Positions 6,085 through 41,600 of a DNA stretch of 64,000 bases are shown piece after piece. The stretch is from Marsupella aquatica (Eukaryota; Plantae; Marchantiophyta), in contig OZ316891.1 of the NCBI GenBank assembly GCA_973895155.1, forward strand, positions 29,990,331-30,054,330, read 5' to 3'. The notes beneath the pieces are model-generated. The model saw only the letters and a list, made by a program, of their open reading frames with translations. It made no database searches and had not been told where the DNA came from. Made by a program: the position numbers and the translations under genes. Position 1 is the first letter of the stretch, and each line of letters starts with the position of its first letter.

Positions 6085-9000
6085 CTATTCAACATTTTCT
6101 TCTCCATTTCCTGGTACCTCACTCTCAATGCATCTAGTAAGATTGTTTTGTGCTTTCTCAGCATGTCTTTTTGGAATTGAAATCAAACCAGATTTTCCAG
6201 TAGATCGCGATTTGAAACACCATAGCACAGTATTCACACTAATTCTCTCTATTTCGTACCCAGGATCACATTCCCATTTCTTGTTCCAACAATATATTGA
6301 GCCATCGTTCTTTTGCTTGCTCACATGCTGGTTGACCTCGTTTTTTTTGCATGACAGGTCGTAACCATCTCACATCACACATGTGTTCTATCTGGTTTTG
6401 ATCATTTGGACTTCCCTCTTCCACATCACTCACCGCTTCTCCCAAATAGATTGGGTAAGTATCCAAGTCGTGGGTGTCTGGTCTCACCATGACATAAACA
6501 CCCTTTGTAACATCAATCCGTGGGTTAAAAACCTCACGTGGCTTATCCTTCCGAGGCCCCACATAGTCTATTTGTGCATCCAACTCACACGCAACATTAC
6601 GGTATGCTAATGGAACATGCTCCCTCCATTTGGATACAGGCCAAAATCCGTGCACCAACTCATTTCCATCTTCCGGAAAATATTGTACTTCTATACCCAA
6701 AGTGCCTCTCACACGGTTCCAATATTCAATCAGTGACTCCCAACTTGTTTTTTGTTCCTCCACAATGTGACTTCTCCTCATGATCAATTCAAAAAAGTGC
6801 ACTTGCTTCAGTAGACCTTCTCGAACCTCCTCCAACACTTTAACCTCTGTCATTGGTAACCTCTTTGGTGTTCCGGTTGGAAGGTTAGGACGTTTCTTGA
6901 CTGTCCATGACCACATTTCAATTCCGCCATTCGGAAGCCACCCTTGATCCATTGCCTTTAGCTTGTATTGCATGCAAGGCATGCCATCCTCTCGAACATA
7001 CAGTCGAAACACTCGAGGTTTCAAATGGCCCACCAATGTATCTCCCCCTTTCAACATATAAGGTGCTCAGTAACTTTTAAAATCAGGCACTTCTTGTACA
7101 AAATGGGGAACAGGATTTGGTTTTCGTGATTTCATTAGTAGCGACATTAAATCTGGGAGAGTATACGATGGCTGCCTCATTAGAGCTTCCGAAAAATTAC
7201 CAAACATTGCATCAACATCTTCATGAGTATGTCCGACCATCAGAAATCCCAAATGAACTTCTTCGAACACCTCTCTCGCTGTCAAAAGTGACAAATATGC
7301 CAAAATGAATCTGTTTTTGTTATCTCCAGCACAATTATCAAGTTGTAACTTCAAGATCCTTGGCAATGGTCTATATAGCTGTGTCAAAGATGATGTTTCA
7401 GAAGCCCCTGAAAAATAAGAAATTTTAACAATCAGAACAATGGCATGCATCTAGATTGTAATCTCAAACACACTATTACTCAATCTCAACCAAAACAATA
7501 TTTGAGATTTACCCACAGCCCACGGGTTGTAGCCTTTCTAAGAGGCTAATATTTTGGATCTAGAAATTAATTTAAAAAATGCGATTAGAAGATGAGATTC
7601 ACTCCTAGAAGGATAGACTAGTTGCAACACCTAATCAATGCGTGTACTTACCTAGACTATTGATATAGTCTATGTCTTCCTTGAATGCATCTTGAACCAT
7701 TTCTCCCAAGACGGGCATTCTTCCAATTAACAAATTTGAAAAAAGCTCTGTAGAATCTGGTCCTTCAAGCAATGATTTCACCATTGGTACCGGATTTTCT
7801 AGCATTCGAAATATTGAATCCAAGGAACCAATGCAGGCATTAGGATCAGCCGGCCACACTCCAATATTATACTGGGCAATTGCTTTTGGACCATGACCAT
7901 GAGTCAAGATACCAGTAAGAGTAACCGGGACCCTCTGCACACCATCCAACGATTTTGGGCATCGTGGCATTCTCGGTAGTGCAGTCTTGCAATGATCCAT
8001 CTTGTCGTGAATCATACACAAGACCTCCTTTGGCCTATGCACCGATTCAAACCTCCAAGCATGATACAACATTCTCCCTTCGGTATGATCTTTGTGATGT
8101 CTGCCCTCATCAACCTTCAAAAGTTCCCTTTCCTCTCTTCCTCCAGTCATTTTGGATTTGCGTTTATTTAACTCACAACAAGTCGTGCACTTTGAGAAGT
8201 TACTCCCTTTCTTCTTTATCCCCACCTCCTTAACGTGATTGTTTCGCAGAACACTCATAGTCGGTTGGGAAACTGGACCAATACCAAACTCTTTGTTCCT
8301 AGAGTTCACCTTCTTTCTCAAATTCTCCCAATTCAAACCTATTGGAAGTTCTCTAAGTACTTGGCGGGTATTGTCATTCATAGTTCGTAACTTAGCTGGA
8401 TGGTTATCTGCGCATTCGTCTATAATCCCTTTCATTGACATAAGCGCTTGGGAAACTCTTTCAGACATTCGTCGTTTTCCAAGATTCCCATGAGTACACA
8501 TAATTGCCCCTGCCCTTACCATTTTCTTCACCTCATAAAACTGACTTCTTCCTTTTCCGTATATCACCCTCCACGCTTCCAGACAAACCCCTCTCCCATT
8601 GGTTCCCTCCATACCAACTATCACTCTACCGCTAACATCATGGAGTGAGTTCACAATAGCAGTAACTTCATCTTCCTTCCGCATCTGATAGCTCTTTGCC
8701 CAATGTTTCTCTCGGAGATTATGTGCAAGGTCACGGTTAAAAAATTGGCAGCATTGTTCCTCACAACAATCCACCTTACTAATGTTTTTGGCATCCTCAC
8801 GGTCTAGAAACTTGCTTTTCTTTGACAGTGAAATGTTGGCTACTTTACTTCTCCTTGTAATGTTCACATAAGATCGCTTTCGACTGGATGCATCAATCTC
8901 TATAGGAATAGTGCCCTTGTTTGGAAAGCTCAACATATGACCTTCACTAGCTCGCAACAAGCTGAGAGGCCAAGGGACAAGACAATTCTTGTATCTAAGG

Positions 9001-9304
9001 TGCTCATTTGTCGCGCCATCAACAAAATCAGTAATGAGTATCCCAATGTGTGTGTCTCCGATGATAATTTCCCCTAATGTTGATCCTTGGGTCACAAAAG
9101 TAATCAGCGCTACAGCAAAATTAACATTTGCTTCATCAAACACTTTCACAACCATCCCAACTTGTGGTACAACTCGTCGGATAGTGCTAGGATCAACTTC
9201 CCCAGGGACACTATCACGGGCACTGTTAATATTGTCAACTTCATCAACATGGACTTCAGGGTGTTTCTCTCTAAAGGGATGAACTCTGAGATCATTTTTA
9301 TCCC
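6085..9304 (-). pseudogene. Sola-like DDD transposase gene B, 3' portion (its 5' end lies beyond the CACTA insertion)
   Basis: Open frame 9304 to 7652 (WDKNDL...CCEEQCC...FSKCTTC...MIHDKMD). GT-AG intron 7651-7408. Exon 2 has QLDNCAGDNKN and FLMVGHTHEDVD. In-frame TGA at 7067-7069; frameshift near 6300-6348; stop at 6085. Confidence 0.85.
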
Positions 9305-11427
9305 AAACACAAGGAAGTTTTGGTGCTCACCTAGGTAGGCAAACACTAAGTAACCAGGGAAAATACAAGATAGAAGATAATTTTGCCGAGTTTCATGTTG
9401 GTGTAACCTGGTACCTACCTGAAGGTAGGGATATGCAAACAACCAAAATGGGACTATTGTGGCGATTCCTAAAATACCGATGTATACAAAGTGGATAGTT
9501 GGTAGTTCATAGATTCACCACCATAGCATGGATGTCCAGAAATTCACAAATGTGCAAGAATTGGGTTAATGTAGGACAATGGAAAACTCCAATGATAAGT
9601 TTGGAGTTAAATTTTCAAATAATTTAAGCCAATTTCTTATCGGTAACCTAACCTAACACAAGGACACTACACCTTATGAACTTCTTCGTTCCACTGCTGA
9701 TGTTCATAGACCAGCTCCTGTTCAGTAGGTGGTCGAGTGCTTCTTTTGCTTGGGATTTGCTTCGACATTTTGCTGGCATCAGAGTGCTGGTTACATTCTA
9801 GATTGCACTATGCTTCAATCACCGTTGATGCTGGTGCTACGTGGTCTACTCGCTTGCTCAGCATAATCATTTTCTTGTTCACGTTTTTGGACCTTATCCT
9901 CCATAGCCCGCAGGCTCCATGCGCTCCGTCCTTTGCTCTCATGCGCTCCGTCGCTACTCTCGATGTCAGAGCCAATGTCTGCTCGACACATCAAGAAATG
10001 AAGAAAACTAACTGTCTTGGCGACCATGATCGTGACCATAACGACAAGCTTGCGGTTACCTCGATCCCTGCCTGAGGATCCGATCCAATGTCTGCTCGAC
10101 ACGCCAAAGAGATGACGAAACACAAACTGATCGACTAGCCAAGAGCTCATCAGGACCCGACTCGAGACTTCCATTTGCGCCACTCTCTGTTTGAATTCAA
10201 ACTTTGAATTCGTCGTCCTCTCTATTTAAGACGATCGATACTCTCCTGTGGATTCATTCTGCTCTCTCTCGCATTGGAATTGCATTTCAGGATTCTCGAG
10301 CTCCTTGCAATTTTACAGTTCACCTATCTTCTTAGCGTTCAGCTCGATCAAGACTCAATCATTGAGAGCCTGTATCTCGTCGTTGATGTTCGTGGCGAAT
10401 TGAGCTCAATTCGTTGTGGGTGTCAGTTCTTCGTAGATATTTTGGGCGAATTGCGAGGAGATTCAGAGGAGGAATTGTTACTTGCTCCGAGGAGATGGCA
10501 CCCAAGGATGTAGCAGTCGCAGCGACTGAAGGCGCTACGGGAGCGAAGAAGGGTCGAGGCATGCCGAAGGCTGTGAAGAGGCATCCCGCATTGAAGGAGG
10601 TCGGTGGAGCAGATGTAGTGGGATCGAAGAAGAAGCACAGAGTTTGTTTAGTGAATATAATAATTATGCAACAAAGGATTAATACAGCTCTTACTATGAA
10701 CTACGTGAGTCCAACTAACATAATAAATTACCTGATCATAACCTGCCTTTGGCTAAGCACTAGAATAATCAGATTGCCAATCATGTCAAAGTGTCCATTG
10801 CAAAGGAATTCCTCTACTCATTTTTAGGACTTCCATTCCTGTCTCTAGTCTTCCTATGTCGAGAAAGGGAATCACAATGTTTTTGCTTACGGTAGCTTCC
10901 CAAATTTCACACCCTTCTCTCACCCGCTTATTTAGCCAACTCACATGGACATTGATGGAATTCTGTGTTCCTTCATCCAGAGTTGCGTCAACAAAGCTTT
11001 CTTCTTCAGGTTCATCTTGGAGTGTATTTTCCATAGAGTCAACATCCATAGCTTCGGCAAGAGATGAACCTCCTTCAGTCCGGCCCTGTGCTAGATCTTC
11101 AACACTCCTTACAACCGCCAGTCTCAGCCTTCCATGTACACGAACCTCCACCACATCATGTATTTTGGGGTAAGTAGGGCATGTATGAAGGCCATATGTT
11201 TCTATATGTTGACGCTGACTTCTGTCTTGAAGTTCCAGGCATACAATCTCAGAGGAACCTCTTCCTGCTTGTCGACTAATGGGCATAAATTTATGCAATA
11301 AACGAGAAACTGGTCGAAAACTGGTATCACCATAGTGTTCGGCCGTGGCTCCAAGCAATGGCAAACCTGAGAGCTTGTCAGTTATCATCTGATTATCAAG
11401 TGATCTTTGTATACTGAACCACTTGGC

Positions 11428-11902
11428 TGTTGAGCATAGACGATGATCGCAACGGCAAGCCCATGAACCATCCAACGCACAATAGTCGACACAAGAGATA
11501 CGTGGTTCACCTCCTTGAGGCTACATCCACGGGAACACACAAGAGAGCTTTACTGAACTCTAAGCCCGTCGGCTATACCGAGTCTCCACAGTGTAAGCTC
11601 TCCCTATCTCTCAAGTGGCTCCATAACAATGAGCCTTGGTTCTACCTCTCCAAGCACACATGCCTCTTATGATATAGTGTGCAATTTAGTTGTACCTAAC
11701 CACATAGTTGTACCTAACCACATAGTTGTACCTAATCACGTAGTTGTACCTAACCACATAGTTGTACCTAATCACGTAGTTGTACCTAACCACGTAGTTG
11801 TACCTAACCACATAGTTGTACCTAACCACGTAGTTGTACCAACCCACGTTGTTGTACCAACCACGTCATACCTAACCTAGACGTAAGAGTAAATACCCAA
11901 CA
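11428..11902 (-). mobile_element. Copia-type solo LTR (475 bp) inside the CACTA transposase CDS
   Basis: TGTTG...CAACA termini; 5-bp TSD TTGGC (11423-11427, 11903-11907); homologous to 19307-19667. Confidence 0.9.
11687..11866. repeat. 18-bp tandem repeat (tagttgtacctaaccaca) ~10 units within the solo LTR
   Basis: Directly visible; produces the VVPNH repetitive ORF. Confidence 0.95.
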
Positions 11903-14900
11903 TTGGCCTCAAAAAATAACTCCTGGTGTCCCAGAAATTCATGGACAAATAAGTCTAATATGACTGCTCTCCAATTCCAACTGTATTCTGGACTGTCCTC
12001 GTCATCTGTCAATACTACCACATGGTCACCAATCCTGAAAAGAGTGTTCCTCACCACTACAGATTTCAAAGGGATAACTTTAAAATCCATGACAGTCCTA
12101 AACAAGGACGTTGCCAGCCCCTGAAGAGCCCAATGCCATTTGACAAAATTGCTGCCATCCTCAGAAAGTAGACGCTTCTTCGCCTTTGTTCTACCTACTC
12201 CTATTCCTCTAGAGAGAATGGAAATTGCACAATGAGAATCGACAGCAAATCTACTCATATTTTTAACTAGTGAAAGAGCCTGCTCTTGTGATGAGACTAC
12301 AACAATACAATTCTCATGCCATTTAGGGCAGGTAAAGTCACGTTTGTCCCTTGCTGCATGCTCAATTGCTCTGGCTCCTGTTGGCCTCAAACGGTTGTGT
12401 GCTTCCAACAGTGTACGATGCTGTGGCAGAAATCCATCATCATCATTCCAAATCATCATGCATGTTTTAGTAAAAAACTGCCTGACGTGATGGGAGGTGA
12501 AAGTTAGCTCCATTTCCTTGTTGTTGGTGGCAGTCCGTCCATAACCAGAGACCATACGTTCGAACCTGTAGCACCAATACACCCAGTGTGGACCATGTTG
12601 TTCGATGTCATCCAACAACTCACCGCTACCTACAAGACAAATTACATCTCATTTGTAAGATGAGTGATCGAGGCTAAGCAGTCTGCAGTTGCCTTGAAAA
12701 AATAGCATAAAAAATTACATCCTAAAATATTTCTGTAACAAACCTGCAACGTGTTCGAGTATAGAGGCATTAACTCCAAAATGCTCCTCACTCCTCACCC
12801 GCCATGAAGCCAACAGACTTCTTGCCTTCTCCAAAGTTGACTTCCTCCACCCCTCCTCCCTACTTTGAATGTAAAAGAGTCTTCCGATCTCAAATAACAG
12901 CATGCCAATTGAACCTAGAGGATTTTCAACTCCTAATCTCAAGCTATATAGTATGTGCGGTAGACAAAATATAACAAATCGAGTATATTCTTCAGCTTTG
13001 AAGTAACCTAGTCTGTCCCCAGGATCTTTCGGCCATCTCCCATCCAGACCTTTAGGTTTTCTGGCAGTCACTTCTGCTAAGGCCTCCTCTAAAACTTTGG
13101 TTTGGGAAGGTGTCAAACTTTTCATCAATTTTGTTACATAGCTCTTGAATAAGTTGAGCGCAAGTATATGCATGACATCATATACTAAATCAGATATCAA
13201 ACAGAAACCAAAGGTATCGCTTAACCTCCAAGCCTTTGCCAACTGGTTAATTCCATGCTCTTGGGATATGCTTACCCTTGAAACTTCTGTTGTACAAAGA
13301 GAGTACCTCTGGGCAGCATCTCTAATGACCGCCAAATCTCGTTTGGCAGGAGGGTACCGCTGCAAATAAGGATTGTTACCATACACAGTAACTCCTTTGG
13401 GCCCTCTTCCTGAAGTGTTTGATTGTTTTTTCCACGTGCCTTTCACTAGACACCTCCTGCACGGTGCCTTCCCCCTCTGGCACCACCCTCCAAATTTGCA
13501 TTGGGCCGGGTGGTCTCCTGTAAATAACATTAGTCTCACCCTACAAGTACAATCTTTTGAGGTGATAAGGTCATGTATTAGCTCTGGCGCATATGAAAAA
13601 TGAAGAGGGAATCCGGCAACTGCCAACATTTGCACGTCTTGGAAAAATGGCTCCATGAAAGCTTCCAAGAAGTGCAATTTAAGCTTGGTGAGTTTTTCAG
13701 TAGCACTGTTTGGTATAAACAGAATGGGAATAGGTTGTATGTCAGAATGGCTACCCACATTCAGTATACTTATCTCCACTGTCCATGTGCTTCTCATAAC
13801 TGAAGATGCTGATTGGAAACCATCCCAGTGAGCCATTAGTGCAATATTGCGAGGGTCCCCCTGGGTACAATAAGAAAAACAATTTAATTAGCATGAATGA
13901 TCGAAGTCAGAAGGAATCCAAGAGAAAAGAATGATTCTCAGATTAGCAAACCATCACAACGACAACGACAACGACATTCAGAGGCCCATTCAGAGGGAAG
14001 AAAAACAGTTATTCAGATTAACATGCATGTACTGACAGCGCCGCATTCAGAAACGATCAAAGAGAGAGAAACAGGTTTCAATATTCTAAGCATAAGAGCA
14101 TGTAATATATGGCAGCTGGCTGCATTCAGATCGAAGAAAGCAAAGAGTGCAATCTAATTAAACAGGTTTTCAAATAAAATTTATTAGAAGTATCATGGAG
14201 ATTTTCAGAGGGAAGTAATTGAGAGCAGACAAATTCATGGAACATCAACGTACATCATTTGGCTAGTACCTGAACATATACTGGCCTTATTTGGAGCCGA
14301 TTTCCGCAAGTGCACACAATGTCATACATGTGGATGTCTCCCACCAGCTTCAATCCTTGGTTCAAAAGGTCGCATTTCTCTGGGTAGGTAGCATAGCCTT
14401 TCCAACAAGTCTGGCATACCACAGGTAACTCATAGGTGCAACACGGGTCCCAGAAATAGGAGTTTTGTTTGGCTTTCGAGCCATCCCACCATTCGCTAAT
14501 TACATCGTCTTTGAGACTCCCAAGCTGGAGCCAACGAGCTCTCTCCCTCCACATGGTTAGTATTTCATGGCAATAGCTTCGTGATCGACACAAATGAGAT
14601 ATCAATGGCGCAATAGGCAGGTAATCAAACCTTAACATATCTTTGCGCTTGATTCTACACCCGAAGACATCACATCGCTCGCTGCAGGTTTCACAATCTC
14701 TGCACAAAATATTCTTGCATAGAGAGCACTTACAACTCTTGCTCGTTGTTTTTGCTTGGTCATCCTGGATGCTTGGTCCAAAGGCCTTAGGTTCGTGAAA
14801 GTTGTCGTCAGCCCCCAAACACAGACGCCATTGATGTGGTTGAGGTGCGCCCATCACTTTGTAAGCAGCCGCCAAGCCATTGAAAGTCCCCAAGGAAGGT

Positions 14901-16001
14901 ATTCCTAGTGGACCACCATCCCATTGAGTACCAGCATACCTCAGCAGTGAGCCAAGGGGTACATTCCTGTAGTCAATGACTGGACTTGCATCGATTGGTT
15001 TGAACAAAGCTCTCAAAATCTTGTCCTGCAAGTCCATAGAAACTTTAGCAGAATCCAACATGGACTGGAGTCTCCATGTCTCTCTATAAATAGCCTCGCT
15101 CAAAGTCAAAGGAATTTCGTTGAGTACAGCGGTTGAGTAGTCGTTGCATCCAACATTATCAGACAATGGCATAAGAGTTTCTGCACCATCCACCCCATCC
15201 TCTGTTGCACACCCAACATCAAAAGCACAATAGCTTGCTGGGATTGCATCAGGGTCACTTGCATACGTAGACCGAGGGCCATTGACAAAACCAAGCAACG
15301 GTCTGAGGAGTAGCGTGCTTTGTATTCTCCATTTGGAAGTCCTTGACAGCTTTGCAAAATCAGATGGAAGATCTGATTGTTGACGTGAACAATCTCCAAT
15401 CACATCAGAGGACTGCCCTTGCACTATTCTATCTCTTGGTCTTTGGGTCGACACTGCTGCCTGGTGCAAAGGAGGGTGGACCGGAACATGCCGCGCATCT
15501 ATGAGAATGCCTTGTTTATCCTTGAGTCTATGATGACCTCTAGTTCTTTTGCTCACCAAATCAAAGCCGTCAGACATTCGTGAACATCTATACTTGCAAT
15601 CACATCTGACTTTCAAACTCAAATCAAAATCCTCCATGTTGCGCAAGAGTCGTAGACAAATTTTCGCGACAAAAAAAGAGTAATGGACAAGTCTGGGCTG
15701 CCCACTACGTACGTACTAAGTTGTCAAGGTCTATAGTATACTTCTGATTGAGTCATTCATTAGCTTCACAGGTCCTGATCCTGTGCGGTCCCCGGCCTAC
15801 CCTTATCGCAGCCCAGAATTGACTCACAGCCTGGATGTGCTGGGATTTGGTGCTGGGATGTGGTGCATTGCATTGAAAGCATATTTGAGCACTTGTGGGG
15901 CCAGTTAATTGAAAAACAAGCCTACGGTAGTACTATACGTGAACCCAGCTTTGGCCTTTGGGCACATGTGGGGCCAGTTTATCAGTTCTTTGGCGGGCCC
16001 C

Positions 16002-16107
16002 TTTTAAAGTAACATGCATGACTCCAGGATTATATAATTAAGTAATTTAATGTTTTTAAAGCAACATGCATGACTCCAGGATTATATAATAAAGTAATTT
16101 ACTGTTT
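16002..16107. repeat. 52-bp tandem duplication
   Basis: aacatgcatgactccaggattatataat occurs at 16011 and 16063. Confidence 0.85.
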
Positions 16108-19100: not shown

Positions 19101-19306
19101 TACAATTTATAGTTTGGCATGTCTTAAAGCTTCCAGACACATTGAATTGAAGGTACTATTGTGCATTTTGCATGAGTACTGAAACAAACAAAAGTATTAA
19201 GTATTAAGCAATTGAATAATTATATTATGCAATGAGCGCCTTGCCTGGCCTCCTCGCGATTTGTTCCAAGTGTCCTCACCAGGACACCTGCCATGGGGGG
19301 CAGCGA

Positions 19307-19667
19307 TATTCAGCATAGACGACAATCGCAACGACAAGCCCATGAACCATGCAACGCACAAGAATCGACACAGAGAGATATGTGGTTCACCTCCACATGA
19401 GGCTACGTCCATGGGAACACACAAGAGCTTTACTGCACTCTAGGCCGACCAGCCATCGAGCCGGCCATACCAAGCATCCACAGCGCAAGCTCTCCCTATC
19501 TCTCAACTAGCTCCGTAACAATGAGCCTGAGTTCCCTAGGGGCTGGCACCAGCCCTGGCTATATACACAGCATCACTATTACCGCTAACCTTAGCTAAGT
19601 CCTAACCTGAGTTAGCCTAACTGTGGTTAGCTCAAGAGTCACAAGACTAATCGAGCAATACCTAACA
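19307..19667 (-). mobile_element. Second solo LTR of the same family (361 bp)
   Basis: 5-bp TSD AGCGA (19302-19306, 19668-19672). Termini TATTC...CTAACA (TG decayed to TA). About 220 bp are clearly homologous to 11428-11640. Confidence 0.85.
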
Positions 19668-20463: not shown

Positions 20464-20537
20464 AATATCATTATGCAATTGATGTTGTTAAATAAATGAC
20501 ATCATATACTTAACAACATCAATTGCATAATGATATT
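20464..20537. repeat. Perfect 28-bp inverted repeat with 18-nt loop
   Basis: aatatcattatgcaattgatgttgttaa (20464-20491) and ttaacaacatcaattgcataatgatatt (20510-20537). Confidence 0.92.
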
Positions 20538-23500: not shown

Positions 23501-23667
23501 GGCTCTCATATTGTTCGATTCCCAAAATGAAAAGATACTCTTGAGTCCTACTACTCTTCTAAAGTCTATTGCTTAGCTGCATGCCCCCGTCAATTCCTGT
23601 TCTTACCGGTTCTTCATTAATGTACTTTTGAGTAGGAGTTGTATACCATAATAATATATAGCGGTTT

Positions 23668-28691: not shown

Positions 28692-29506
28692 TATGATATA
28701 TGTCATGTTTGACTTCAGCAACCGAATCCTAATATATAGAGATCTAGGGTTCACTAGTAGTTGACTAGTAGTCAATAATATATAATGGCCAACATATATG
28801 TTAACTGTAAAAGATACCTATGCAATTAGGTGGATACAAATGTAGTAGACTTTTACCAATTGTACATTGATACAATTATTGTAATTCAATGGAGGCTGGT
28901 GCTACTACCTCTAGCTCCTGCTATTTCCTATATAGTATTATATTTGTCAGTGAATTGAAATACCAGCATGAGTACTTTGTCTTATGCTCAAAAGGTTGAA
29001 TTGGTTTGCTTTGTCTACTAAAAGAATAATGTTTGCTTAAATAAATATTTTAAATTATAAAAATTGGACAACTGAGATGAAAAGAGATCGAGCCTTCTTA
29101 TTAAGGTTGGCAAAACAAGAAACACTTCTCATTATAATATTCAGGTATATACGTTGACAAAGAAAACGTTTACTGTACTAGGAATATTGAATTCTCCAAA
29201 TAGGCTGATGTAAATCAAGGAATATACAAAATACCCAAATCATTTTGCAAAAGTAGGATTTTACAATACGCCAAAGTAGGATTTTACAACATGCCTATGA
29301 TTTATCTTCAAGGACTTTGTCCCACATGTGAAATCTGGGTATATTGAAGTTTCCTATGCCGTCCAAACAGCCAACATAACATCCCGGGGAATGTTTCATA
29401 AACCCATTTAAGGTCAGTTTCCCCACTTCTTTGTCAAAAATATGGGGGAAATGGGTTTACATCTAGGATATTAGCCAAGGTGGGGGTAAGACAGAAACTC
29501 CTTGTG

Positions 29507-29735
29507 AAACAAGAAAGGATCCAATCAAGTGCTTCAAGTATTCTCCATCAGAAAATATGAACTTTTCATCCAAACATTCAATAACCTCCACCATTACATG
29601 ATCCGGACCTAACTCCACCGTGTGACAAATCCTGGTGGGATCACTACTAAAAATCTTTCCCATCCCAACCAATATCTTTGAGCCAAACAATCCGACCATG
29701 TCACCCACTTCAAAAGACAGGATGGTCGTAGACAT
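29507..29735 (-). pseudogene. 5' end of transposase gene B (first beta-domain), displaced 20.2 kb by the CACTA insertion
   Basis: MSTTILSFEVGDMVGLFGSKILVGMGKIFSSDPTRICHTVELGPDHV resembles the N-terminal repeats of gene A and joins 9304 in frame once the element is removed. Confidence 0.85.
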
Positions 29736-32069
29736 TTTAGTTTTGCAATAGCAATATATAATATTTGTTAGCCACTTTACATTATTCGGTTGCCCTTATC
29801 TCAAATTATCCGAATCCCAAAACGATGCCACTCTATCACAAAACTTTCTAAAAAAAAGAAGGTTCTCTAAAGATCAGAGAATAATGTTTTGGATATTATG
29901 TCATCTTTGTAGCTCAGATTGGAATTTAAGGTGCCCCGCATCTGGGCTTTGTTGATTAACTTAACTCAAGGTATCAGTACCCTACCGCCCGCGGGTTGTG
30001 AACAATACTTATTGAGGTATCAGTACCCTGCCGCCCGTGGGTTGTGAACAACATTGATTTCGCTTCATTCAAGAGATGCTCCCTCCAAGAAACAGTATTC
30101 TTTGTTATATATATATATATATATATGTGCAACATCTACAAAAGGTGTCTAGCTAAGGGTTAACTGGCTCTAGTAAGTTTTGACACCAAGTATCATTGTG
30201 TACCCAACAATCAACTCAATACCCCACAACCCACGGGTTGCAGGGTACACAAATTCATCGACCATTAGTAGGCTGGCGGCTGATAAACCTTATCAATAAC
30301 TAGAATGTAATAACATTTTTATGAAAACATTACAAGAAATTCTCTTGAATTCTATCAATCAGAGATGGAGGACCCTACAGCCTGTGGGTTGTGCGGTGTA
30401 CAAATTTTAGGACCCCGGGTGTGGATATATAAACCCTAAACCCTAAATATCCCTATTTCCTCACGGGTTCCAAAGTAGGGTCACAAGAAATTATGATATT
30501 AATAATGAATATTGTCCCCTTTTGACACATGATAGTAGTTATCAAGGGTTCAGACTAGATTTGAGTTTATTCGGCTTCTCAAACGGTTTAGATTTGATTT
30601 CCTGATTAAATTGTTTAATTTGTTACATGATGTTCGGATGTGGTCAGGAGTTCAATTTTAGGGTTGAGATCTCACTCCCTGACTGAATATTATGAAAATT
30701 AATAAGGGCTATTCAAAATTATGAAGGGCTATTTAAAATTGGTTTACTATCTGAACAGATGATTGATGTTGTTTGTTCATAAAATGAGAAACACTTCACC
30801 TCAAGTGAGCAGCAAACTTAATTATTTCCAGCAACTGGTCAAGTCTTCAGGTGAAATTGTGATCTTAGATTTTGTGTTTTAAAGAATTTTAGGGTTTAGT
30901 AGTTACTCCAAAATTTTAGATTCGCGTACATTTCTAGAGCATATACAATATTGTATCTGATTCGAACTTTCACAAAGAACATGAATTGAATGTGAGTACA
31001 TGAATTGAATCTGAATACATGAATTGAATCTGAGTACATGAATAGAGTTTACGTTCATCACATTAGAAACAAAATTGCTTTGATCAGTCACGGGATCAAA
31101 GAAATTTAACACACAGACTCAACCAGAAGAGATATAAACAGGTTACAAATTGTACACAATGAACCAAACAATAAATTAGGGATTTGAAAGTAGACTGCAT
31201 ACCTTATGCTGAGTGACGACACTCTCTTGTAGCTTGAATGTTGTTCCCGATCACTCTAGAGAAGCTAGCTCCTTATCGATCTCCTCAAGTAATCGAGCTC
31301 TCCCTAGATTACTCTCGGTCCTCTGATCGAATTGTCTCGACGTGGGTGACTTTCCTCAATCTAAATGAGCTCAGCCGGTAGTGCTCTCCTCTTGAATGAC
31401 TCCTCTCCTCTAATCAAGCTCAGCCGGTTGAGCTCTCTCCCGCAAGTTTTAAGCTATTATGGGAGAGAGCCTTAACCGATCAAGCTCTCGACCAAGAAGT
31501 ATCACTAAAACAATTGCTATACCTCAAACTTGAAACTCAGACGAGGATTGATTGAAGATGAATGCGCAATGTGAAATAAGCCAGTATCGTGACCACAACA
31601 AAGAGATTGCAAGACAAGCGAGACTAACGCGACCTTACACAAGCGGGTACACAAGAAACATGAGGACTGAAGTCGACTGAGGCTGGTGCAAGGCCTTACA
31701 AAAGAAACCTCGGCGAGAACTGAAGATTGAGGCCGGTGCAAGAGTCTGCATGACGATTCATGCTCACTTTGAGCATCATTCAAATTCAAATTTCAAATAC
31801 AATTCTCTTGGAGGGAAAACTTGGATGCAATTTGACGGCCGGATCCACGTTTTGACAGAATTTGCAACTCGTCATACTGCTTATACTGTAGACGTTATAA
31901 AAATACGATGTTGGACCTACTATGTTTGCAATTACGTCAACACTTTCAACATTGCTTTTTCAATCTGACAATACATTACCTTCCAACATACAAACTAAAT
32001 ATTATTTCAGTTACGTTAAATATATGATTGGGATATTAAATGTACTGTAATATTACTATGGTATATATT

Positions 32070-34915
32070 ATTGTAAACATGGAGCATAGGGATACCTTAA
32101 GACAACCTCCTTAATTAGTTCAATTACACTATATATCCGGACCAGCTAGAGTTGTGCTAACATGGAGCATGGAGATAATTTATCAAACCCCCTTCAACTA
32201 TATATATATATCCAGCATTTATTAAACTATATTTCCATCCAAGGTTTCCCAAACATGAAGCCCATGTGTACCTTATAAAATCCCTCTAGCTTGCATTAAG
32301 TTCTACTTCCTTCTAGGGTTGCACAAACATGGTGCATAGGTACTAATACTTTATAAACCCCCTTCAAAGTGGAGCATAGGGATACCTTATTATAATATCC
32401 CTCCAATTAAATTGCACTTCCTTCCATGTTGCACATACATGAAGCATTGGAGCATCACTCAGGATAGTTACCTCATAAACCCTTCGAATTAAATTGTACT
32501 TCCAGTTAGTAGGGTTGCGTTAACTGTCCGGGTAACTGTCCCCCTTAATACTTTATAAACCCCCTTCAACTAACATGGAGCATAGGGATACGTTATAAAT
32601 TAATACCGGCCCCTTAAATTAAACTAGATATATCTAGCTAGGGTTGGAGTAAGATGGAGCATAGCGACAAGGGTTGGACTAAGATGGAGCATAGCGACAT
32701 GTTATAATTAAATTGTACTTCCAGTTAGTAGGGTTGCGCTAACTGTCCGGGTAACTGTCCCCCTTAATACTTTATAAACCCCCTTCAACTAACATGGAGC
32801 ATAGGGATACGTTATAAATTAATACCAGCCCCTTCAATTAAACTAGATATATCTAGCTAGGGTTGGAGTAAGATGGAGCATAGTGACAAGGGTTGGACTA
32901 AGATGGAGCATAGCGACATGTTATAAACCCAACCCCTTAAATTAAACTAGATTTCTAGCTTGGGTTGCCCTAATTAACATGGAACATACTAGGGATAAAT
33001 TGTAAACCATCCTCCATTAAACTATACTTCCAGGCATCCAGGGTTGCACGAACATGGTGCATGTACTACTGTACAGGTATATTTTCTAAAACCCCGTTAG
33101 TTCCATGAAACTATATACTTCCATCCAGGGTTTCCCAAACATGAACTAAGCATTAGTAGCTCTAAGGTGTACCTTAATTATAAAACCCTGCTTGCACTAA
33201 GTTCTACTTCCTTCTACTAGGGTACCCCTTCCAACCTAATTGTACTTCCAGGTAGGGTTGAACTAAATACATGGAGCAGACTTAGGGATATATATATATA
33301 TATATCATGTATATTTAAAAACCCCTTGCTTTAAATTATACTTCCAGGCATCCAGGGTTGCACTAACATGGAGCATGGGTATACGTTATAACCCCCTTCA
33401 ATTAAACTAGATATGCAGCTAGGGTTGCGCTAATTAACATGGAACATACTAGGGATACGTTGTAAACCCCCTCCATTAAACTATGCTTCCAGGCATCCAG
33501 GGTTGCACTAACATGGAACATACTAGGTATATTTTCTAAACCCCGAGTTCCATTAAACCAATGATATACTTCCATCCAGGGTTTCCCAAACATGAAGCAT
33601 TAGTAGCTAGGTGTACCTTATAAAACCCTGCTTGCACTAAGTTCTACTTCCTTCTACTAGGGTACCCCTCCAACGTAATTCTACTTCCTGGACCAGGTAG
33701 GGTTGAACTAACATAAAATTGAGCAGACTTAGGGATATATATATATATATACGTACGTTTTAAAACCCCTTGCATTATATTATACTTTCAGGCATCCAGG
33801 GTTGCACTAACATGGAGCATGGGTATACGTTAAAACCCCCTTTATTAAACTAGATATGCAGCTAGGGTTGCGCTAATTAACATGGAACATACTAGGGATA
33901 CGTTGTAAACCCCCTCCATTAAACTATGCTTCCAGGCATCCAGGGTTGCACTAACATGGAGCATACTAGGTATATTTTCTAAACCCCGAGTTCCATTAAA
34001 CCAATGATATACTTCCATCCAGGGTTTCCCAAACATGAAGCATAATTAGTAGCTAGGTGTACCTTATAAAACCCTGCTTGCACTAAGTTCTACTTCCTTC
34101 TACTAGGGTACCCCTCCAACATAATTCTACTTCCAGGTAGGGTTGAACTAACATACATGGAGCAGACTTAGGGATATATATACATTTTAAAACCCCTCAG
34201 TTGCATTAAATTATACTTCCAGGCATCCAGGGTTGCACTAACATGGAGCATAGGTATACTTTATAAAACCCCCTTAATTAGTTCCATTAAACTATATACG
34301 TTATTAAACCTTGCTTGCACTAAGTTCTACTTCCTTATAGGGTTGCCCAAACATGGGGCATAGGTATTTTTATAAACCCCCTTCAACTAACATGGAGCGT
34401 AGAGATACCTTATCAAACCCCACGCCTTCAAGTAACATGCATGGAGCAGAGCAACACCATATAAAACCCCTTGGATTGAATTGCACCACCATGGGAAATA
34501 GGGATCTACCTTATGAAATCCCTCGAATTAAATTGCCCAGGTTCCTTCCATGTTGCACACACATGGAACCTAGGCTAGGGATACGTGATAAACCCCTCGA
34601 ATTAAATTGTACTTCCAGTAGGGTTGCACTAACATGGAGCATGTATACTTATGGATACTTTATAAATCCCACTTCAATCAATTAAACTATACTTCTAGCT
34701 AGGGTTTGACTAGCTAACATGGATATTAGGGATACCTTCTAAACTCCCCTAATTCAATTAAATTATACTTCCATCGAGGGCTGCACAATGAACATGGAGA
34801 ATAGCAATACCTGCTAAACCCTTCCATTAAATTAGACTTCTGTCCATTATTTACCCAAACATGGAGCATAGGGCTACCTGATAAACCCCTGGCATTTAAG
34901 TATACTTCCATCCAG
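32070..34915. repeat. Degenerate ~60-65-bp satellite (aacatggagcatagggataccttataaacccc...tacttcca..tagggttgcact) with ~220-bp and ~443-bp higher-order duplications
   Basis: Recurring aacatggagcat / agggttgcactaa motifs; near-identical ORFs at 33402 and 33845 are offset by 443 bp. Confidence 0.9.
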
Positions 34916-35071
34916 GGAATCAACGTACTCAATCAAGTGATAGCATCAACGTACAGCAGGACGAGTATTGTGAACTGGATGATGGTGACGTGTTTGCTCA
35001 CTCGCGCGCGCACTAGATGATGGCGACGTTTTTCCCCACTCGCGCCTGTTTGAGTACTACCGATCACGTTC

Positions 35072-35235: not shown

Positions 35236-38098
35236 GGAGATTGAGGATCTATATGAGGTTGATCGATATGGCGATTCTAGAGACTACCATTTGATTCAAG
35301 AGGTGTTCAATTGAGAACTGATACTATTTTGCGGACAAACGTACAAAGCATTCATGAGGTGTTCAATTGAGAACTGGATTGCTTTGTACTGATACTATTT
35401 TGCGTCGGGGCAGGGAGCTCTCTTTCTCCAAAAATGAGCTGGACATTTGAGGTATGCAACACCTTGACTGGAACCTAAATCATTTCATTTGGTTCACTTT
35501 GTGAAGTCGCAAGAGTATATCTTCGACAATCGGAATAGTATCATTGTTTCTAGCAAGAAAGGAGGGGAATTAATTACCGTCGGTAGTGACTTTTAGTGGG
35601 TCGGACACCGTTGGGTTGAAATGCCGTTTGGATGGCAAGTGCGAAAGTGAATTGATGAATGAGGAGTTTTGTGTTGCTAGGTTGCATTTTTTGGAGGCAC
35701 CAATGTGTTTTGCGTTGGTTGAGAGCAAACGTCGCGGGAGTGAGGCACGATGTCTTTGTATGTACAAGCTCTGAAAGGTACTAAAACTCACCTATATATA
35801 TATTGTTCAAAGGCTTGTCAATCCTCCTGTCGAATGCTTTCCTAGCCTTGTGCTTCTTGGAATGCTTTCCTGCTTTCAGACTTCTCCTTTTAGACTTCTC
35901 AGACTTCTGTCAGCCTTCGAGCCCCTTCTCCCTAAGTATGTTGACTATGCTTTTTGCGATTTCAGATGCAAATGTGCGTGACAGAGCCTGGATGATCCAT
36001 TGTTGACTACGGATTTTGTGGTGACCACGTTGTGGAGAGCGGTATCCATCCATTGTCAATAATCCATCCAGGTGTGATTGCCTTGCCTTGTATTGCTCGA
36101 CTCATTGTTGGAGACTACATTGGACAGTAAATGATGTGTTTGCCATAATACGTGATCTGCTATGTGAATGATCATGATCTACTATGTCAACAAGCAAGAT
36201 AGTCGCATTTGGGATCTCTCACGGGCCGCTTATTCTGTGAGAAGTCTATGTTTGCATGGGTCTATGGAATGTTGTCAAATAATGTTATCGTTCTCAATCT
36301 TGATGCTTGATAGAGGAGAAGGAACGTAGTTGTTTAGGGTAGTAGTCCTTAAAGCCTGTGTTGTGGTTGTTGTTCGAATTTAATTTTTCATAGTTGTGGA
36401 GCAGTCAAGTTGGTCCGTTTGTGTGCCTCCTGATAACTTAAGCTGCAACCCCGGTTGCACCAAATCTGTTGTTTCTTTGTTAAAGGTGACATTAGTCATC
36501 CCAATAATTTCTAATCTGCCTGCAATCAAGGTAGTCAAGTAGCTCCAAATTCAAAGATCATCAATTGTCTTTCTTCAAAGACATCATTCATCTGGCAATC
36601 GTTCATCGTTCATCTAGATATCTGGAAATCGTTCATCATTCATCATCGTTCATCTGGATATGTAAAGATGACATTTTTAGTTTGAGGTCAGCCGATCATT
36701 CATTGAGCTATGTAATCCCATAGGTAGAGGTTGTCAGGTAGGGATCTATTTGAAATGAGGTGTTGTTTTGGAATGTACAGCGATTGGTGTTAATAGTATC
36801 CTAAACCCTGCTGCCCTTGTTCTCAAATTCATTGGTTTCATAGATTGCTATTGTAGTCCAGAGAGCCCAGCTATGTGGGCCCTCTACAAGTACACAGTAG
36901 GTCACTGAGCCAAATGTCATTATTTTTGGAAATTTGGGAGGCACGAAAGTTTCTCGGCTCTTTGTTTCAATATGTTGTGAGTAATGTGCTGTTGAGATTG
37001 GTTCTCCTGTACTAATTACTCCTTCCCTTCAAGTACTCTGTCAAAGATGAAATCCATGGCCTCCTAATCAGATAAGTGAGTATGGATGATTCCTGTGATT
37101 GAGATTGTGTCTCACTGTGGCTTTGGGTCAAATGTTGTGCAGGTCCATGGTGCTCAGATTCCATAGCCGCCAGGGATTTAACAACAATTTGGCCTAATCA
37201 TCCCAAGCATCTACTCCGACCTGCTCCTCAAAAATTTGCACCCTTGGAATAATTATAGGTAAGCCCCTGGTGTCATATCTAAATGTAATGAAGATGTCAA
37301 AATTTCAGTATCCACTGACTAGTTAATCCATGATTGCATCCACTATCCACTATCCGTGATTGCATCCACTATTCATACCCAATGTTGTTGTGATAAAATC
37401 CTATTGTATCAATGCACATTTGTTAATTTGTTTAGTTTCCAGATTGAAATTTTCAATCTGTCTGTCGATCTTCTTGATCTCAATGTGATTCCTTCTGCCC
37501 GTAGTTGGTACATCTACCGCAACTGCATCACTCTGCATAAAAAAACAAGTGTGTCAATTTGTTTTGCAGGTTTCTAGTGCTTCTCCTGCCTACATCCTTG
37601 ACAAGCATTGTGCGGGGTATAGTCTACCTGCGATGCCTCAATCTTACACACTGAAACAACAATCTGCTGAAGTTTGAAGAGATTAGAGCCCCACAAAATC
37701 CGGGAACAAAAATCTTGAGGTAAGAGCTTTTGGAACTCATTGTCTGGTTCATAGTAAAGATTGTAGAGTTGAACTCGTCCATGAATTGTACGCAATTGCC
37801 ACCAATATTAAAGAGATTATGAGGAAAGACTGTTATCAGGAGATTAGCAATTGTTTGTAATGAGTACTATTACTATTAAAGAAGGGTAATGATTCTTGAT
37901 CCACAGGGGCTACTCTAGCCAAAATATAGATCAATCATATATAAACTATGAAGGGTTGTCTGTCACATAATCCTAGCCCCTCAATCACACCCTCTCGAGC
38001 CTAGCTAACTAGATTTTGGGTCAATTGCTAATGAATATATTGATTAATGAGTATACTATTGATCCGGGGGTTTAGGAGGCTAATAAAACAAGAGAGGA

Positions 38099-38665
38099 CC
38101 TCACCACCCGCGGGCCGTGAGGCTCACTTGGATTGACTGTCTAGCATACCTCACCACCCGCAGGTTGTACATGCAACTCACTAAAAGCTCAACATATCTC
38201 ACCACCCGCGAGCCGTGAGGCTCACTCAGACCGACTGTATAGTATACCTCACCACCCACGGGCCGTGAGGCTCACTCAAACCTATAGTCTAGCATACCTT
38301 GCCACCCGTGGGCCGTGAGGCTCACTTAGACCGACTGTATAGGATACCTCACCACCCGCGGGCCGTGAGGCCACTCAGACCTACACTCTAGCATACCTTG
38401 CCACCCGCGGGCCGTGAGGCTCACTCAGACCGACTATATAGCATACCTCACCACCCATGGGCCGTGAGGCTCACTCAAACCTACTATCTAGCATACCTTG
38501 CAACCCGCGGGCAGTGCGGCTCACTAAGACCGGATGTCTAGCATACCTCACCACCCGCGGGTCATGAGGATCACTTGGACCGACTGTGTAGAACACCCCA
38601 CCACCCACGGACCCTGAGGCTCACTTGGATCAACTGTTTAGCATACCTCACCACCCGCGGGCTGT
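38099..38665. repeat. ~50-bp tandem array (~12 units), each with the imperfect palindrome cctcac-cacccgcgggcc-gtgagg
   Basis: Directly visible; ends ~95 bp before the ATG of the ParB-like gene. Confidence 0.95.
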
Positions 38666-41600
38666 TGGCTGTGTTTGTCATCCATTCAAACAAACTAACT
38701 ATAGAGAGACCTTCCTTTTTAATTAAACAAAATTCCTTGTTTTTTGTGTGACTCCAGATATGGCTCCTAGAAATGGCAGCTCCCGAACAAAGAGCAAGAC
38801 CAAAAGCTCAATTGTTGACCAGCTTGATAAGATGAAAATGATCAAAACATATCGAGGGAAAAAGATACGGGACCTTACCTCACCGGAAGCCAGCTCAATT
38901 TATAGAGTGAAGTCAAGCAACGTCTTTGATTGGGGATTAGTACTCCAGAATAAGGAATTGCGAATATGTTTCACGCACAAGGAGACGTTACATATCGTCA
39001 TGGATGCAGAAATTGTGGGATGCATCTTCAAGTGAAATATGGGGCTTGATGACCTACAAGAAGCATTGGTACTTCTCTTTGACGAAAGAGAAACTGGAGA
39101 AACAATTGGGGTTTGCTTTGATCGAATGGATTATGGAACTTTCTCCCAGCGGAAAGTCACAGAATATCTCACCTCAAGTTCAGAATTGCTTGGTTTGAAT
39201 TGTTGGGAGGGCTTTCCCATTGCACCATTGGTTCCAGATCCAGAAAGTATCTCCAGATACATCAATTCCATTTTGGAGTTCTCAAAACAACCGTTCACCG
39301 AAATATTTTCTGTCACCAGGAAAGGGGGAATTTTGGCATCAAATCCTCCAAAGGATATCACGACGGAGAACGTGGATGAATTATTTTGCAGCTTTCTAGA
39401 ATCATACTCTCATCTGAACATCTTTCAGAGCAAGACTTTTGAGGTGCCTATTGAGAGATGTCACCTGGCACCAAATCACATAAAATGTCGTGACTTTGAT
39501 GAAGATTATGCCACCGAACTGAAGGTTGCTTTCTTTGGCTACTCCTCGATAACCTTTCAAAAAACTCTCTGCTTTCTTGTCCCAATAACATGGGACTCAA
39601 AGAACAAATCAAAAGGTTACTATGGAACTCCTCTAAAAGAGGCACCGCAGAGTGATGATATTACCAACACACTTGTCACTTCTGGATTCTTGGTGGGCAG
39701 CACACAATAATGGCATACAAGGCGATCCTCAAGGAAGATGATAAGCGATGCACATTTCGGGAGGATCTTCGCAAGGTTCAGGCAATTATGTTCTGGTCCC
39801 CATACAGTTTGAAAGAAAACCTCATGATGATGGGGCTCTCTCGAGCCTTGAACAATATCCAGAGAACTCAACTTGACGAGACTAACTTTCCGTTGATAGC
39901 GTCCCAAGCACGTGCAGTATGGAAAGAGTTTGGAAGTCCAAGAAAAGAGAATGCTCAGGCAAAGGGGTCAAAATGGAAGGTAAATTATCAGACACTTCTA
40001 GATAGCATGAGCCCTACAACCCGCGGTTTGTGTGGTAACATTGAATATAATGACTTGAATCTGTATTTTCTGTAGGGTTCTAATATTATATTTTGTAATG
40101 TTTTATATTCAGGTGTTCCTTGAAGCTGCCAAGATTATTGTTCCATGGGCACGGCAGATGAAAATGTTTTCATTTACCGAGCTCAATCCGTTTATCTTTC
40201 ATATGAGCGATGCAACATTCAGCAAATGGATGTGGGTATATGAGAAGTCTCGTACAGGATCCCTTATAGCGTTCAATGGTAAAACGCAAGCTCAGGCAAT
40301 AACTTACAGTAACCGGAAGACTTGGCAACTGAATAGGCGATGCTTCCGAGATCTACAAGGGATGGAGGAAGCTGACATAGACAAGGTTGCCGCCTACTTG
40401 TTGGAGAATTCAAAGATATCTCTTTTGAAGGACCGACCTCATTCAAAAGATTATGATGCTGAAGAAGCCGAAAAGTTTATTTCCATGGAAGAATTTTGTG
40501 TCAACAAGAAGTAGAAGCGAATGTTTGAGATAGATCTGTTGGAGAACTTGGGTGACGGTGGCATGAAACGTACTGAATTGAATAGCCTGAAAAAGATTGA
40601 GAGGAAAGTTGAGGTTGATATCTTGTGCAAGAGGTATCATCTTAATAAAGAAAAGCTGAGCAGGATCAAGGATTCACTAGGAGAGGAGTATCTCAACAAG
40701 GCGTCGCAGAAAACAACCAGTGTTGGAACAATGAAGAGTCTTCTCCCAGAGGCTTTTAAGAGCTTAATTGCCGCAACAAAGAACTCCATTGACGAGTTTG
40801 GAAACCTGAAGCCTCCCCAAATCAAGGATATCCTTCAGTTACACTCGCGGAAAGGTCTGAAAACAAAGAAATTTCTTGACGAAATCTCTGAGTCCCTGAG
40901 ACAACGGGTAAACTTTTTCTATTTTGACTCCACTATTCTATCTGATGACGGTCCATTCATATCCAGTTTTTACTCTATGTTCATCAGAGCAATTAAACAG
41001 ATGGGGACGGTAAATCATGTCCTTGTCCATGTCTTAGATCCTATTGAGTCTATTTTCATGATGAGAGAGTTAGTGTCAACTCCAGGATATTTCCCATTCC
41101 AAACAACTTACGTCCAGAGAAGAGGCACCGAAAAGTCTCATATTTCCCTCTTTAACACAGAGCGGGATGTTACATATACTATGACATATGCATTTTGTCA
41201 ACCTCTCTTATCAAAATCTACCGACATGACAAAGATAGGGGAAGCAATTAAGTCCAGTCTACAAACTCGGGGAACTCTCCTTAACTTTCAGGAGTCTAAA
41301 GAGGATCAGGCTGCTAGGTCTTTCCCTGGTGAGAAAAGTATTCTCTTTTTCCAATACTTGACTCGACTGTTTCTCGACAACGGAAAGCGTGCTGTCTGTT
41401 TTGGAGAAGGGCTAAACTTGGTCAAATGCCTCCTGGTAAGCTTTCAAGTATTATTACAATTCTATTTTTGAATAGCTTTAACCTTATCTTAAGTTCCTCT
41501 AACATCTTGCTTGTTTATTCCAGGAAGAAGGAGTTAAGGTTAGATCTTATTGTAAACGATCATTTCACACAGAAATGAGTGGGTATTTGGTGCCTTGTAT

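What the first reader, a model, noticed from the sequence alone, without database searches (positions are those of the whole stretch)
7514..40032. CACAACCCGCGGGTTGTG-like palindrome links gene B and the ParB-like gene into one element
Seen: variants at 7514-7531 (gene B intron), 29983, 30029, 30225, 30376 (upstream of gene B), the 38099-38665 array, and 40015-40032 (first coding-region intron of the ParB-like gene). I saw none inside the intervening CACTA element. Many variants are CpG-to-TpG/CpA changes. Inference: B and the ParB-like gene are divergently transcribed parts of one element of roughly 19 kb or more once the CACTA is removed.
Basis: partly seen in the sequence, partly recalled or inferred. 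Interest (0 to 1): 0.7.

Follow-up and report, generated by a model that had tools for sequence, protein, structure and literature searches.

The report
Plant transposons with private ParB-type palindromes
A 19.7-kb jumping gene, probably from a non-flowering plant, carries a ParB-like gene beside its transposase and 19 copies of its own DNA palindrome, while a neighbouring element of the same build has a different palindrome, so each element's ParB-like protein likely reads its own element, an idea already proposed for algal transposons but untested.

Summary
A matrix trained on the 12 array copies finds 19 sites, all inside one element and none in the 20.2-kb CACTA-like insert. The element's ends are 5643 and 45564: a 19-bp inverted repeat, an AATG duplication, and public contigs that carry the empty site. 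Net length is 19,720 bp. Gene B is a DUF7869 transposase split in frame by the insert; both genes are broken in this copy. A second element (46966-62100) has the same ends, a DUF7869 transposase, a protein whose model matches ParB/Noc structures and a different palindrome, 21 of 21 copies inside it. B's gene is homologous to that protein (HH-suite 94%). The build resembles the published brown-algal Sola1-1_Ec32, and ParB self-binding was already proposed for red-algal Plavaka elements. This scan noted a similar animal element earlier (e1-6729163, unchecked). New here are the probable land-plant setting and two mutually exclusive candidate sites. Binding and function are inferred, and the GxxR nucleotide-binding arginine is missing.

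The parts
5639..5642 (.). Left target-site duplication AATG
   Evidence: empty site in public contigs
5643..5661 (+). Left terminal inverted repeat of element B (19 bp, starts AACCC)
   Evidence: only exact 19-bp inverted match more than 1 kb apart in the window
6269..9307 (-). Gene B, 3' part: DUF7869 transposase; predicted intron 7408-7651; in-frame stop at 7067-7069
   Evidence: Pfam PF25273 E 3.1e-35 on 7070-7450; splice and stop check
7514..7531 (.). Palindrome copy in the predicted transposase intron
   Evidence: stretch kept and repeated in a diverged relative
9308..29506 (.). CACTA/EnSpm-like insert, 20,199 bp, CACAAGGA termini, 3-bp duplication AAA (9305-9307, 29507-29509); splits gene B in its coding region; holds no copy of the palindrome
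   Evidence: weak Transposase_21 hit E 0.0073, below Pfam's cut-off
29510..29735 (-). Gene B, 5' coding part (first in-frame ATG at 29735; upstream exons possible)
   Evidence: frame continues without a stop across the insertion point
29983..30393 (.). Four palindrome copies upstream of gene B (29983, 30029, 30225, 30376)
32000..35000 (.). Complex tandem array in the spacer with 12 exact half-sites (YRCAACCC), all on one strand, 4 of them in the CG form
38098..38666 (.). 50-bp tandem array, 12 motif copies, ending about 95 bp before the ATG of the ParB-like gene, in a predicted 5' intron
38760..41468 (+). ParB-like gene, 5' part: N-terminal region, ParB-like domain (about 39420-39900), helical region, weak methyltransferase-like region (about 40900-41435); stops at 39033-39035 and 40512-40514 and a frameshift near 39665
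   Evidence: relatives P0141 and P0145 (56-59% identical) read through both stops
40015..40032 (.). Palindrome copy in the predicted intron 39980-40112
41888..45172 (+). Downstream frames on the same strand: acidic low-complexity region and two NIF-like domains (about 43749-44258 and 44666-45061); whether they belong to the ParB-like gene is inferred
   Evidence: Pfam PF03031 E 2.2e-15 and 7.9e-09
43276..43293 (.).
   Evidence: 16.1 bits with the array-trained matrix
45546..45564 (-). Right terminal inverted repeat of element B
45565..45568 (.). Right target-site duplication AATG
46966..62100 (.). Comparison element C: AACAC...GTGTT ends, 25-bp inverted repeat, TAGC duplication, DUF7869 transposase (+, about 47986-51553), ParB-fold gene (-, about 56660-58865), own palindrome CGATAAATTTATCG in 21 copies

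Best explanation
Element B is a 19.7-kb cut-and-paste transposon of the Sola1-1_Ec32 build whose ParB-like accessory protein likely binds the element's own palindrome, placed in predicted introns and upstream of both genes, and would thereby mark the element as self and probably keep its genes expressed against host methylation. Shown: the element's ends, duplication and empty site; the split DUF7869 transposase; confinement of the palindrome to the element; homology of the accessory gene to a ParB-fold protein; a second element with its own, different palindrome. Inferred: binding as a dimer at the palindrome (about 0.65), and an anti-silencing or self-activating outcome like VANC on VANDAL (about 0.4 overall). 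Binding is more likely static than a CTP-driven sliding clamp, because the GxxR arginine is absent. This copy is dead and was inactivated by the insert, three stops and a frameshift.
For: Each palindrome is confined to its own element: 19 of 19 in B and 21 of 21 in C, against 0.45 and 0.6 expected by chance. Both elements carry a ParB-like gene. C's model (pLDDT 91.5) has ParB or Noc as all 11 Foldseek matches at E <= 0.001, and VIA-align gives PadC Z 11.0 (rmsd 2.7, 99 aligned) and KorB Z 9.4 (rmsd 6.9, 193 aligned). B's domain matches the profile of C's relatives at probability 94.4, score 54.7 against at most 21.8 in 30 shuffles. Of B's 19 sites, 18 are outside coding frames and 16 cluster just upstream of the two start codons. 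In contigs of a diverged relative only the motif-bearing part of gene B's intron aligns, and a 39-nt stretch holding the motif is repeated (joints 7426-7504, 7543-7505, 7551-7638). Published parallels: inverted-repeat arrays beside ParB-like PAG3 genes (10.1101/2025.02.11.637652, passages), and VANC motifs in introns and tandem repeats that differ between families (PMC5735166, passages).
Against: No binding, expression or methylation data. The fold was shown for C's protein, not B's; B's predicted DNA-binding region matches C's family only weakly (E 0.007, score 20.1 against 17.5 for the best of 40 shuffles). The Box II motif reads GGQHT in B and GGNHG in C; none of the six commonest residues at that column (65 of 70 rows) is arginine, and this arginine is required for NTP binding in tested ParB-fold proteins (10.1101/2025.10.10.680097, passages). 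B's methyltransferase-like region is a weak match (probability 8.7, E 0.004) and lacks the DxPY motif seen in 8 of 16 relatives checked. Only two elements were compared, and each also has its own transposase, so the pairing does not single out ParB. Twelve of 19 sites are one tandem array; counted as 4 independent non-array clusters, confinement has p about 0.009. The intron evidence rests on one contig in each of two runs of one study, laid at 85% likeness. CpG depletion in B (o/e 0.53) is no lower than in its neighbours, so no protection from methylation is visible in this copy.
Confidence: 0.6

Rival explanations
1. The ParB-like protein binds the palindromes but acts as a KorB-type self-repressor, limiting transcription of the transposase and of itself, rather than countering host silencing.
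For: 16 of 19 sites sit just upstream of the two start codons. KorB is the best match that spans both domains of C's model (Z 9.4, rmsd 6.9, 193 aligned).
Against: Sites also lie in introns and in a downstream frame. The host DNA is CpG-depleted (o/e about 0.5), so silencing is the likelier pressure. Relatives carry DNA methyltransferase domains (8 of 70 with PF01555), which suggests a chromatin role.
Confidence: 0.17
2. The palindromes are binding sites of the transposase, used to assemble the ends, and the ParB-like gene is an unrelated passenger.
For: Each element has its own transposase (B and C are 27-43% identical in the aligned core). In C the palindrome occurs within 500 bp of both ends. 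Subterminal transposase sites are common in DNA transposons (recalled).
Against: In B the nearest copies are 1.87 kb and 2.27 kb from the ends and most lie mid-element. The palindrome does not resemble the terminal repeats. Short non-autonomous derivatives were not available to test this.
Confidence: 0.12
3. The palindromes are sites for a host transcription factor, or neutral repeats spread inside the element by local duplication.
For: 12 of 19 copies are one tandem array and two more are a 46-bp duplication. Copies are degenerate.
Against: Flanks differ among the dispersed copies while the core is kept. There are no copies in 44 kb of other sequence, including a 20-kb transposon. C repeats the pattern with an unrelated palindrome.
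Confidence: 0.11

Closest known systems
Sola1-1_Ec32 of Ectocarpus (PMC12477816; passages and rows of supplementary file 1 read; its FASTA supplements could not be read)
   Same: Giant element (21,549 bp against 19,720 bp), 4-bp duplication, termini AACCG-CGGTT against AACCC-GGGTT, and a ParB-like gene on the strand opposite the transposase.
   Different: Brown alga against a probable land plant. 282-bp imperfect against 19-bp perfect terminal repeat. Its accessory protein has a predicted N4/N6 methyltransferase, while B has only a weak, motif-less counterpart plus two NIF-like domains downstream. The passages read name no binding site.
Plavaka PAG3 of Bostrychia (10.1101/2025.02.11.637652; passages read, supplements closed)
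   Same: ParB-like accessory gene with neighbouring tandem arrays of inverted repeats; self-binding proposed.
   Different: EnSpm-type transposase, 2OG-oxygenase fusion, red algae. The passages read describe arrays beside the gene, not dispersed intronic copies or a comparison of sites between families; unseen supplements may do so.
VANC anti-silencing proteins of VANDAL transposons (PMC5735166; passages read)
   Same: Transposon-encoded protein with family-specific short motifs in introns and intergenic regions, amplified as tandem repeats.
   Different: Unrelated protein and Mutator-type element (superfamily recalled), 8-9-bp non-palindromic motifs, and function shown by experiment there but not here.
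Bacterial ParB/parS, Noc/NBS and KorB/OB
   Same: ParB N-terminal fold followed by a helical region (model of C's protein); 14-18-bp palindromic candidate sites.
   Different: No GxxR arginine, no ParA partner seen among the frames scanned, eukaryotic intron-containing gene; nucleotide binding and clamp sliding untested.

Membership tests
Cut-and-paste DNA transposon | Terminal inverted repeats with a target-site duplication and an empty site elsewhere | tested here: met
   19-bp repeat and AATG on both sides; empty-site contigs, 27 of 30 letters matching 45569 onward, next best place 22 of 30
Sola1 | 4-bp target-site duplication | tested here: met
   AATG for B, TAGC for C; 4 bp for Sola1-1_Ec32
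Sola1 | AWWT target preference (called a hallmark in PMC3845634, passages) | tested here: not met
   Neither AATG nor TAGC is AWWT; only two sites. Sola1-1_Ec32 is also listed with another bias. Filed as Sola1-like, not as a member.
Sola1 | Transposase grouping with reference Sola1 transposases | not testable with these tools
   No Repbase set is held. DUF7869 hit and three conserved acidic motifs shared by genes A, B and C; reading them as the catalytic triad and DUF7869 as Sola1-type is recalled. No paper held contains the term DUF7869.
Sola1-1_Ec32-type giant elements | AAC...GTT termini | tested here: met
   B AACCC/GGGTT and C AACAC/GTGTT against AACCG-CGGTT
Sola1-1_Ec32-type giant elements | ParB-like gene on the strand opposite the transposase | tested here: met
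   B; C:
Sola1-1_Ec32-type giant elements | N4/N6 methyltransferase domain fused to ParB | tested here: inconclusive
   B: collinear but weak profile match (probability 8.7, score 26.8 against at most 19.5 in 30 shuffles), no Pfam hit, low-confidence model with no fold match, no DxPY motif
ParB-CTPase fold proteins | ParB N-terminal fold | tested here: met
   Directly for C's protein; for B by homology to C's family
ParB-CTPase fold proteins | Box II GxxR arginine needed for NTP binding | tested here: not met
   GGQHT in B, GGNHG in C; column survey of 70 rows; requirement from 10.1101/2025.10.10.680097. Filed as ParB-like, not as a CTPase.
ParB-CTPase fold proteins | Central DNA-binding domain that reads a palindrome | tested here: inconclusive
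   C's model aligns with the KorB DNA-binding domain only at Z 5.2 (rmsd 4.0, 108 aligned); B's matching region is weak; binding not testable here
VANC-type anti-silencing system | Protein binds family-specific motifs and removes methylation from its own element | not testable with these tools
   Only the layout (family-specific motifs in introns and tandem arrays) was compared
EnSpm/CACTA (the insert) | CAC...GTG termini, 3-bp duplication, Tnp2-type transposase (features recalled) | tested here: met
   CACAAGGA ends and AAA duplication; Transposase_21 only at E 0.0073, below the curated cut-off

The most novel reading that the evidence does not exclude
Giant Sola1-like transposons of land plants use a bacterial-type ParB/parS module as a self-recognition code: each family's ParB-like protein has co-evolved with a private CpG-containing palindrome and, without the canonical CTP switch, shields or switches on only its own element. 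This would be a second, independently evolved sequence-specific anti-silencing system in plants beside VANC, with its target sites now named.
Probability: 0.33. Interest if true: 0.8.

Novelty: new variant of a known kind. Interest (0 to 1): 0.56.

Why it matters
Two 2025 algal papers propose that ParB-like accessory proteins bind and modify their own transposons, and one states that VANDAL elements are the only transposons known to do so. This window supplies what a test needs: two related elements, two ParB-like proteins and two mutually exclusive candidate sites, so a reciprocal binding experiment can confirm or reject the idea. Named relatives in Chara, Riccia, Adiantum and Ginkgo suggest the protein family is widespread in non-flowering plants. 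If true, it would show a bacterial segregation protein reused as a transposon self-recognition device, and would offer new sequence-specific chromatin-targeting parts.

Tried and rejected
No whole genome is held, so no genome-wide motif scan or copy alignment was possible. No RNA holder was listed. No loose end at the CACTA junction was among the 24 rows shown (225 not shown), so an insert-free form was not seen in other copies. Pfam gave no ParB family for any of 33 window frames or among the 25 families shown for the 70 aligned relatives, and a sequence search of solved structures found no ParB. A search for longer relatives of B's ParB piece found none among 727 candidates; the near-length searches found one relative each. 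The Atlas gave no usable hit for B's piece; for C it gave DUF3723 clusters first and ParB_N at rank 29. An HMM of 9 methyltransferase regions did not hit B's frame. The model of B's methyltransferase-like frame was poor (pLDDT 40.9) and its fold search is uninformative. Two metagenome scans found no related locus, so no third element could be checked. Rfam found nothing at its gathering scores, so a known RNA is not supported. A dimer prediction was not run; no verdict. The ends of element A were not found. Literature searches found no land-plant report; most subscription papers, Repbase Reports and the bioRxiv supplements were not searchable and may hold one.
Full report
Observation. A matrix trained only on the 12 array copies finds 19 sites at 12 bits or more, against 0.45 expected per 64 kb in 40 Markov simulations. 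The seven non-training hits are 7514, 29983, 30029, 30225, 30376, 40015 and a new one at 43276. None lies in the 20.2-kb insert or outside 5643-45564. A matrix trained on the six non-array sites gave one weak hit in the insert, at chance level. The written consensus never occurs exactly, and the array copies are only partly symmetric. The central CGCG is intact in 9 of 19 sites and the other 10 are CpG-type changes; other positions vary in other ways.

The element. The only exact 19-bp inverted match more than 1 kb apart in the window, AT microsatellites left out, is 5643-5661 with 45546-45564, and both ends are flanked by AATG. Laying public contigs on 5300-11000 gave loose ends behind 5642 in runs X1 (2 contigs) and X2 (1 contig, 8 letters), both from one study. 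The X1 letters match the window at 45569 in 27 of 30 places, the next best place being 22 of 30. This is the empty site with one AATG; it most likely comes from other copies of the repeat that B jumped into. Element B therefore spans 5643-45564.

The insert. A 20,199-bp element with CACAAGGA termini and an AAA duplication occupies 9308-29506. Taking it out in a script gives a frame without stops from 29795 to 7638, so it landed in the coding region of gene B. Net length of B is 19,720 bp.

The genes. Gene B is a DUF7869 protein (E 3.1e-35) sharing three acidic motifs with genes A and C; I read it as a transposase from those motifs and from its place between terminal repeats. It also has an in-frame stop at 7067-7069. 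The gene on the other strand starts at 38760, has stops at 39033 and 40512 and a frameshift near 39665; two relatives at 56-59% identity read through both stops. Pfam finds no ParB domain. I therefore used the neighbouring element C, whose corresponding frame is open. It has 140 relatives at E <= 0.001. Of 10 proteins looked up (9 relatives of C's protein, 1 of B's), five carry organism names: Chara, Riccia (two), Adiantum and Ginkgo. Its model, built on 70 of these sequences including itself (pLDDT 91.5), has ParB or Noc as all 11 Foldseek matches at E <= 0.001; VIA-align ranks PadC (Z 11.0) and KorB (Z 9.4) first. A profile of 119 relatives ranks B's two consecutive frames first and second among non-self frames of 711 (E 1e-4 and 0.044), and B read through its frameshift with X matches at probability 94.4. 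'ParB-like' is thus justified for B's N-terminal domain. The following helical region (E 0.007) and the methyltransferase-like region (E 0.004) are weak matches; the latter lacks the DxPY motif found in 8 of 16 relatives checked. Two NIF-like domains follow; that they belong to the same transcript is inferred. The GxxR arginine, which a bioRxiv survey shows is needed for NTP binding (10.1101/2025.10.10.680097, passages), is absent in B and C and from the six commonest residues at that column (65 of 70 rows).

A natural control. Element C (46966-62100) has AACAC...GTGTT ends, a TAGC duplication, a DUF7869 transposase and the ParB-fold gene on the opposite strand. It carries a different palindrome, CGATAAATTTATCG. 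A matrix trained on 4 of its copies finds 21 sites, all inside C, against 0.6 expected. They lie near both ends, in predicted introns of both genes and upstream of both. Neither motif occurs in the other element at that threshold. In B, a 3-kb array in the spacer adds 12 exact half-sites, and 22 of the window's 27 half-sites are in B. In contigs of runs X3 and X4 (one study) the flanks of gene B's intron do not align while the motif-bearing part does, and in X3 a 39-nt stretch holding the motif is repeated. This is one contig per run at 85% likeness, so it is a supporting hint.

Mechanism. The simplest account is that each element's ParB-like protein binds its own palindrome as a dimer, at introns and promoters, and marks the element as self (inferred, about 0.65). 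In DNA with CpG at about half the expected level, the likeliest use is to keep the element's genes active, as VANC does through family-specific motifs in introns and tandem repeats (PMC5735166, passages). The loss of the Box II arginine makes a CTP-driven sliding clamp doubtful. Against this, nothing here shows binding, each element also has its own transposase, and B's CpG level is no better preserved than its neighbours'. The rivals are KorB-like self-repression, transposase sites (weak for B, whose nearest sites are about 2 kb from the ends), and host-factor or neutral repeats.

What is known. The Ectocarpus element Sola1-1_Ec32 is 21,549 bp, has AACCG-CGGTT termini, a 4-bp duplication and a ParB-plus-methyltransferase gene opposite its transposase; the authors suggest such proteins bind and modify their own transposon (PMC12477816, passages and supplementary table rows). 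The Bostrychia preprint reports tandem arrays of inverted repeats beside ParB-like PAG3 genes of Plavaka elements and proposes the same (10.1101/2025.02.11.637652, passages). The build and the hypothesis are therefore in print. My searches found no land-plant case and no side-by-side pair of sites, but they miss most subscription papers and Repbase, and the bioRxiv supplements were closed. An earlier unchecked note of this scan describes a like element in an animal (e1-6729163). Strict Sola1 membership is not claimed: the two duplications are not AWWT (PMC3845634, passages) and no reference transposases were on hand. PMC4455052 and PMC5751038 (passages) added nothing on this. The host is not identified; a non-flowering streptophyte plant is inferred from the named relatives, the introns and the CpG depletion.

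Verdict. It is a new variant of a recently described kind, valuable mainly because two elements with mutually exclusive palindromes make the published self-binding idea directly testable. Interest 0.56.

Noticed in passing
window 46966-62100: Complete second element of the same build with its own palindrome; it also holds a 758-aa frame (52592-54865) and further frames at 59092-59823 and 60353-60655 with no clear Pfam family.
   Followed up: partly
window 1750-5491: Third DUF7869 gene (gene A), into whose 3' flank element B is inserted; 17-bp and 27-bp tandem arrays upstream (354-423, 1250-1575); its ends were not found.
   Followed up: partly
window 32000-35000: Complex tandem array (443-, 219- and 74-bp periods) holding 12 exact half-sites of B's palindrome on one strand, 4 in the CG form.
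   Followed up: partly
window 36444-36459: Shortened near-palindrome built from the same half-site, between the spacer array and the ParB-like gene.
   Followed up: no
window 56057-56075: Sequence resembling a retrotransposon primer-binding site (resemblance recalled) inside element C, just 3' of its ParB-fold frame; a nested LTR fragment may have cut off that gene's tail.
   Followed up: no
window 52096-52269 and 55074-55138: Direct 8-bp TTAAGAGT arrays bracket the 758-aa frame inside element C, possibly a nested unit.
   Followed up: no
window 9308-29506: The CACTA-like insert holds a minus-strand transposase region (11875-15715), a second multi-exon gene (24763-28688, +), inverted blocks at 18480-21784, and an 81% direct repeat at 11430-11642 / 19309-19534.
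   Followed up: no
window 43704-45172: Two tandem NIF-like phosphatase domains; the HAD motif (recalled as DxDxT/V) looks degenerate in both.
   Followed up: no
window 46590-46860 and 62770-63597: Exon-like pieces on both sides of element C and an RNase H1 N-terminal domain (PF01693, E 4.7e-14) at 63289-63597 suggest C sits in an intron of another gene.
   Followed up: no
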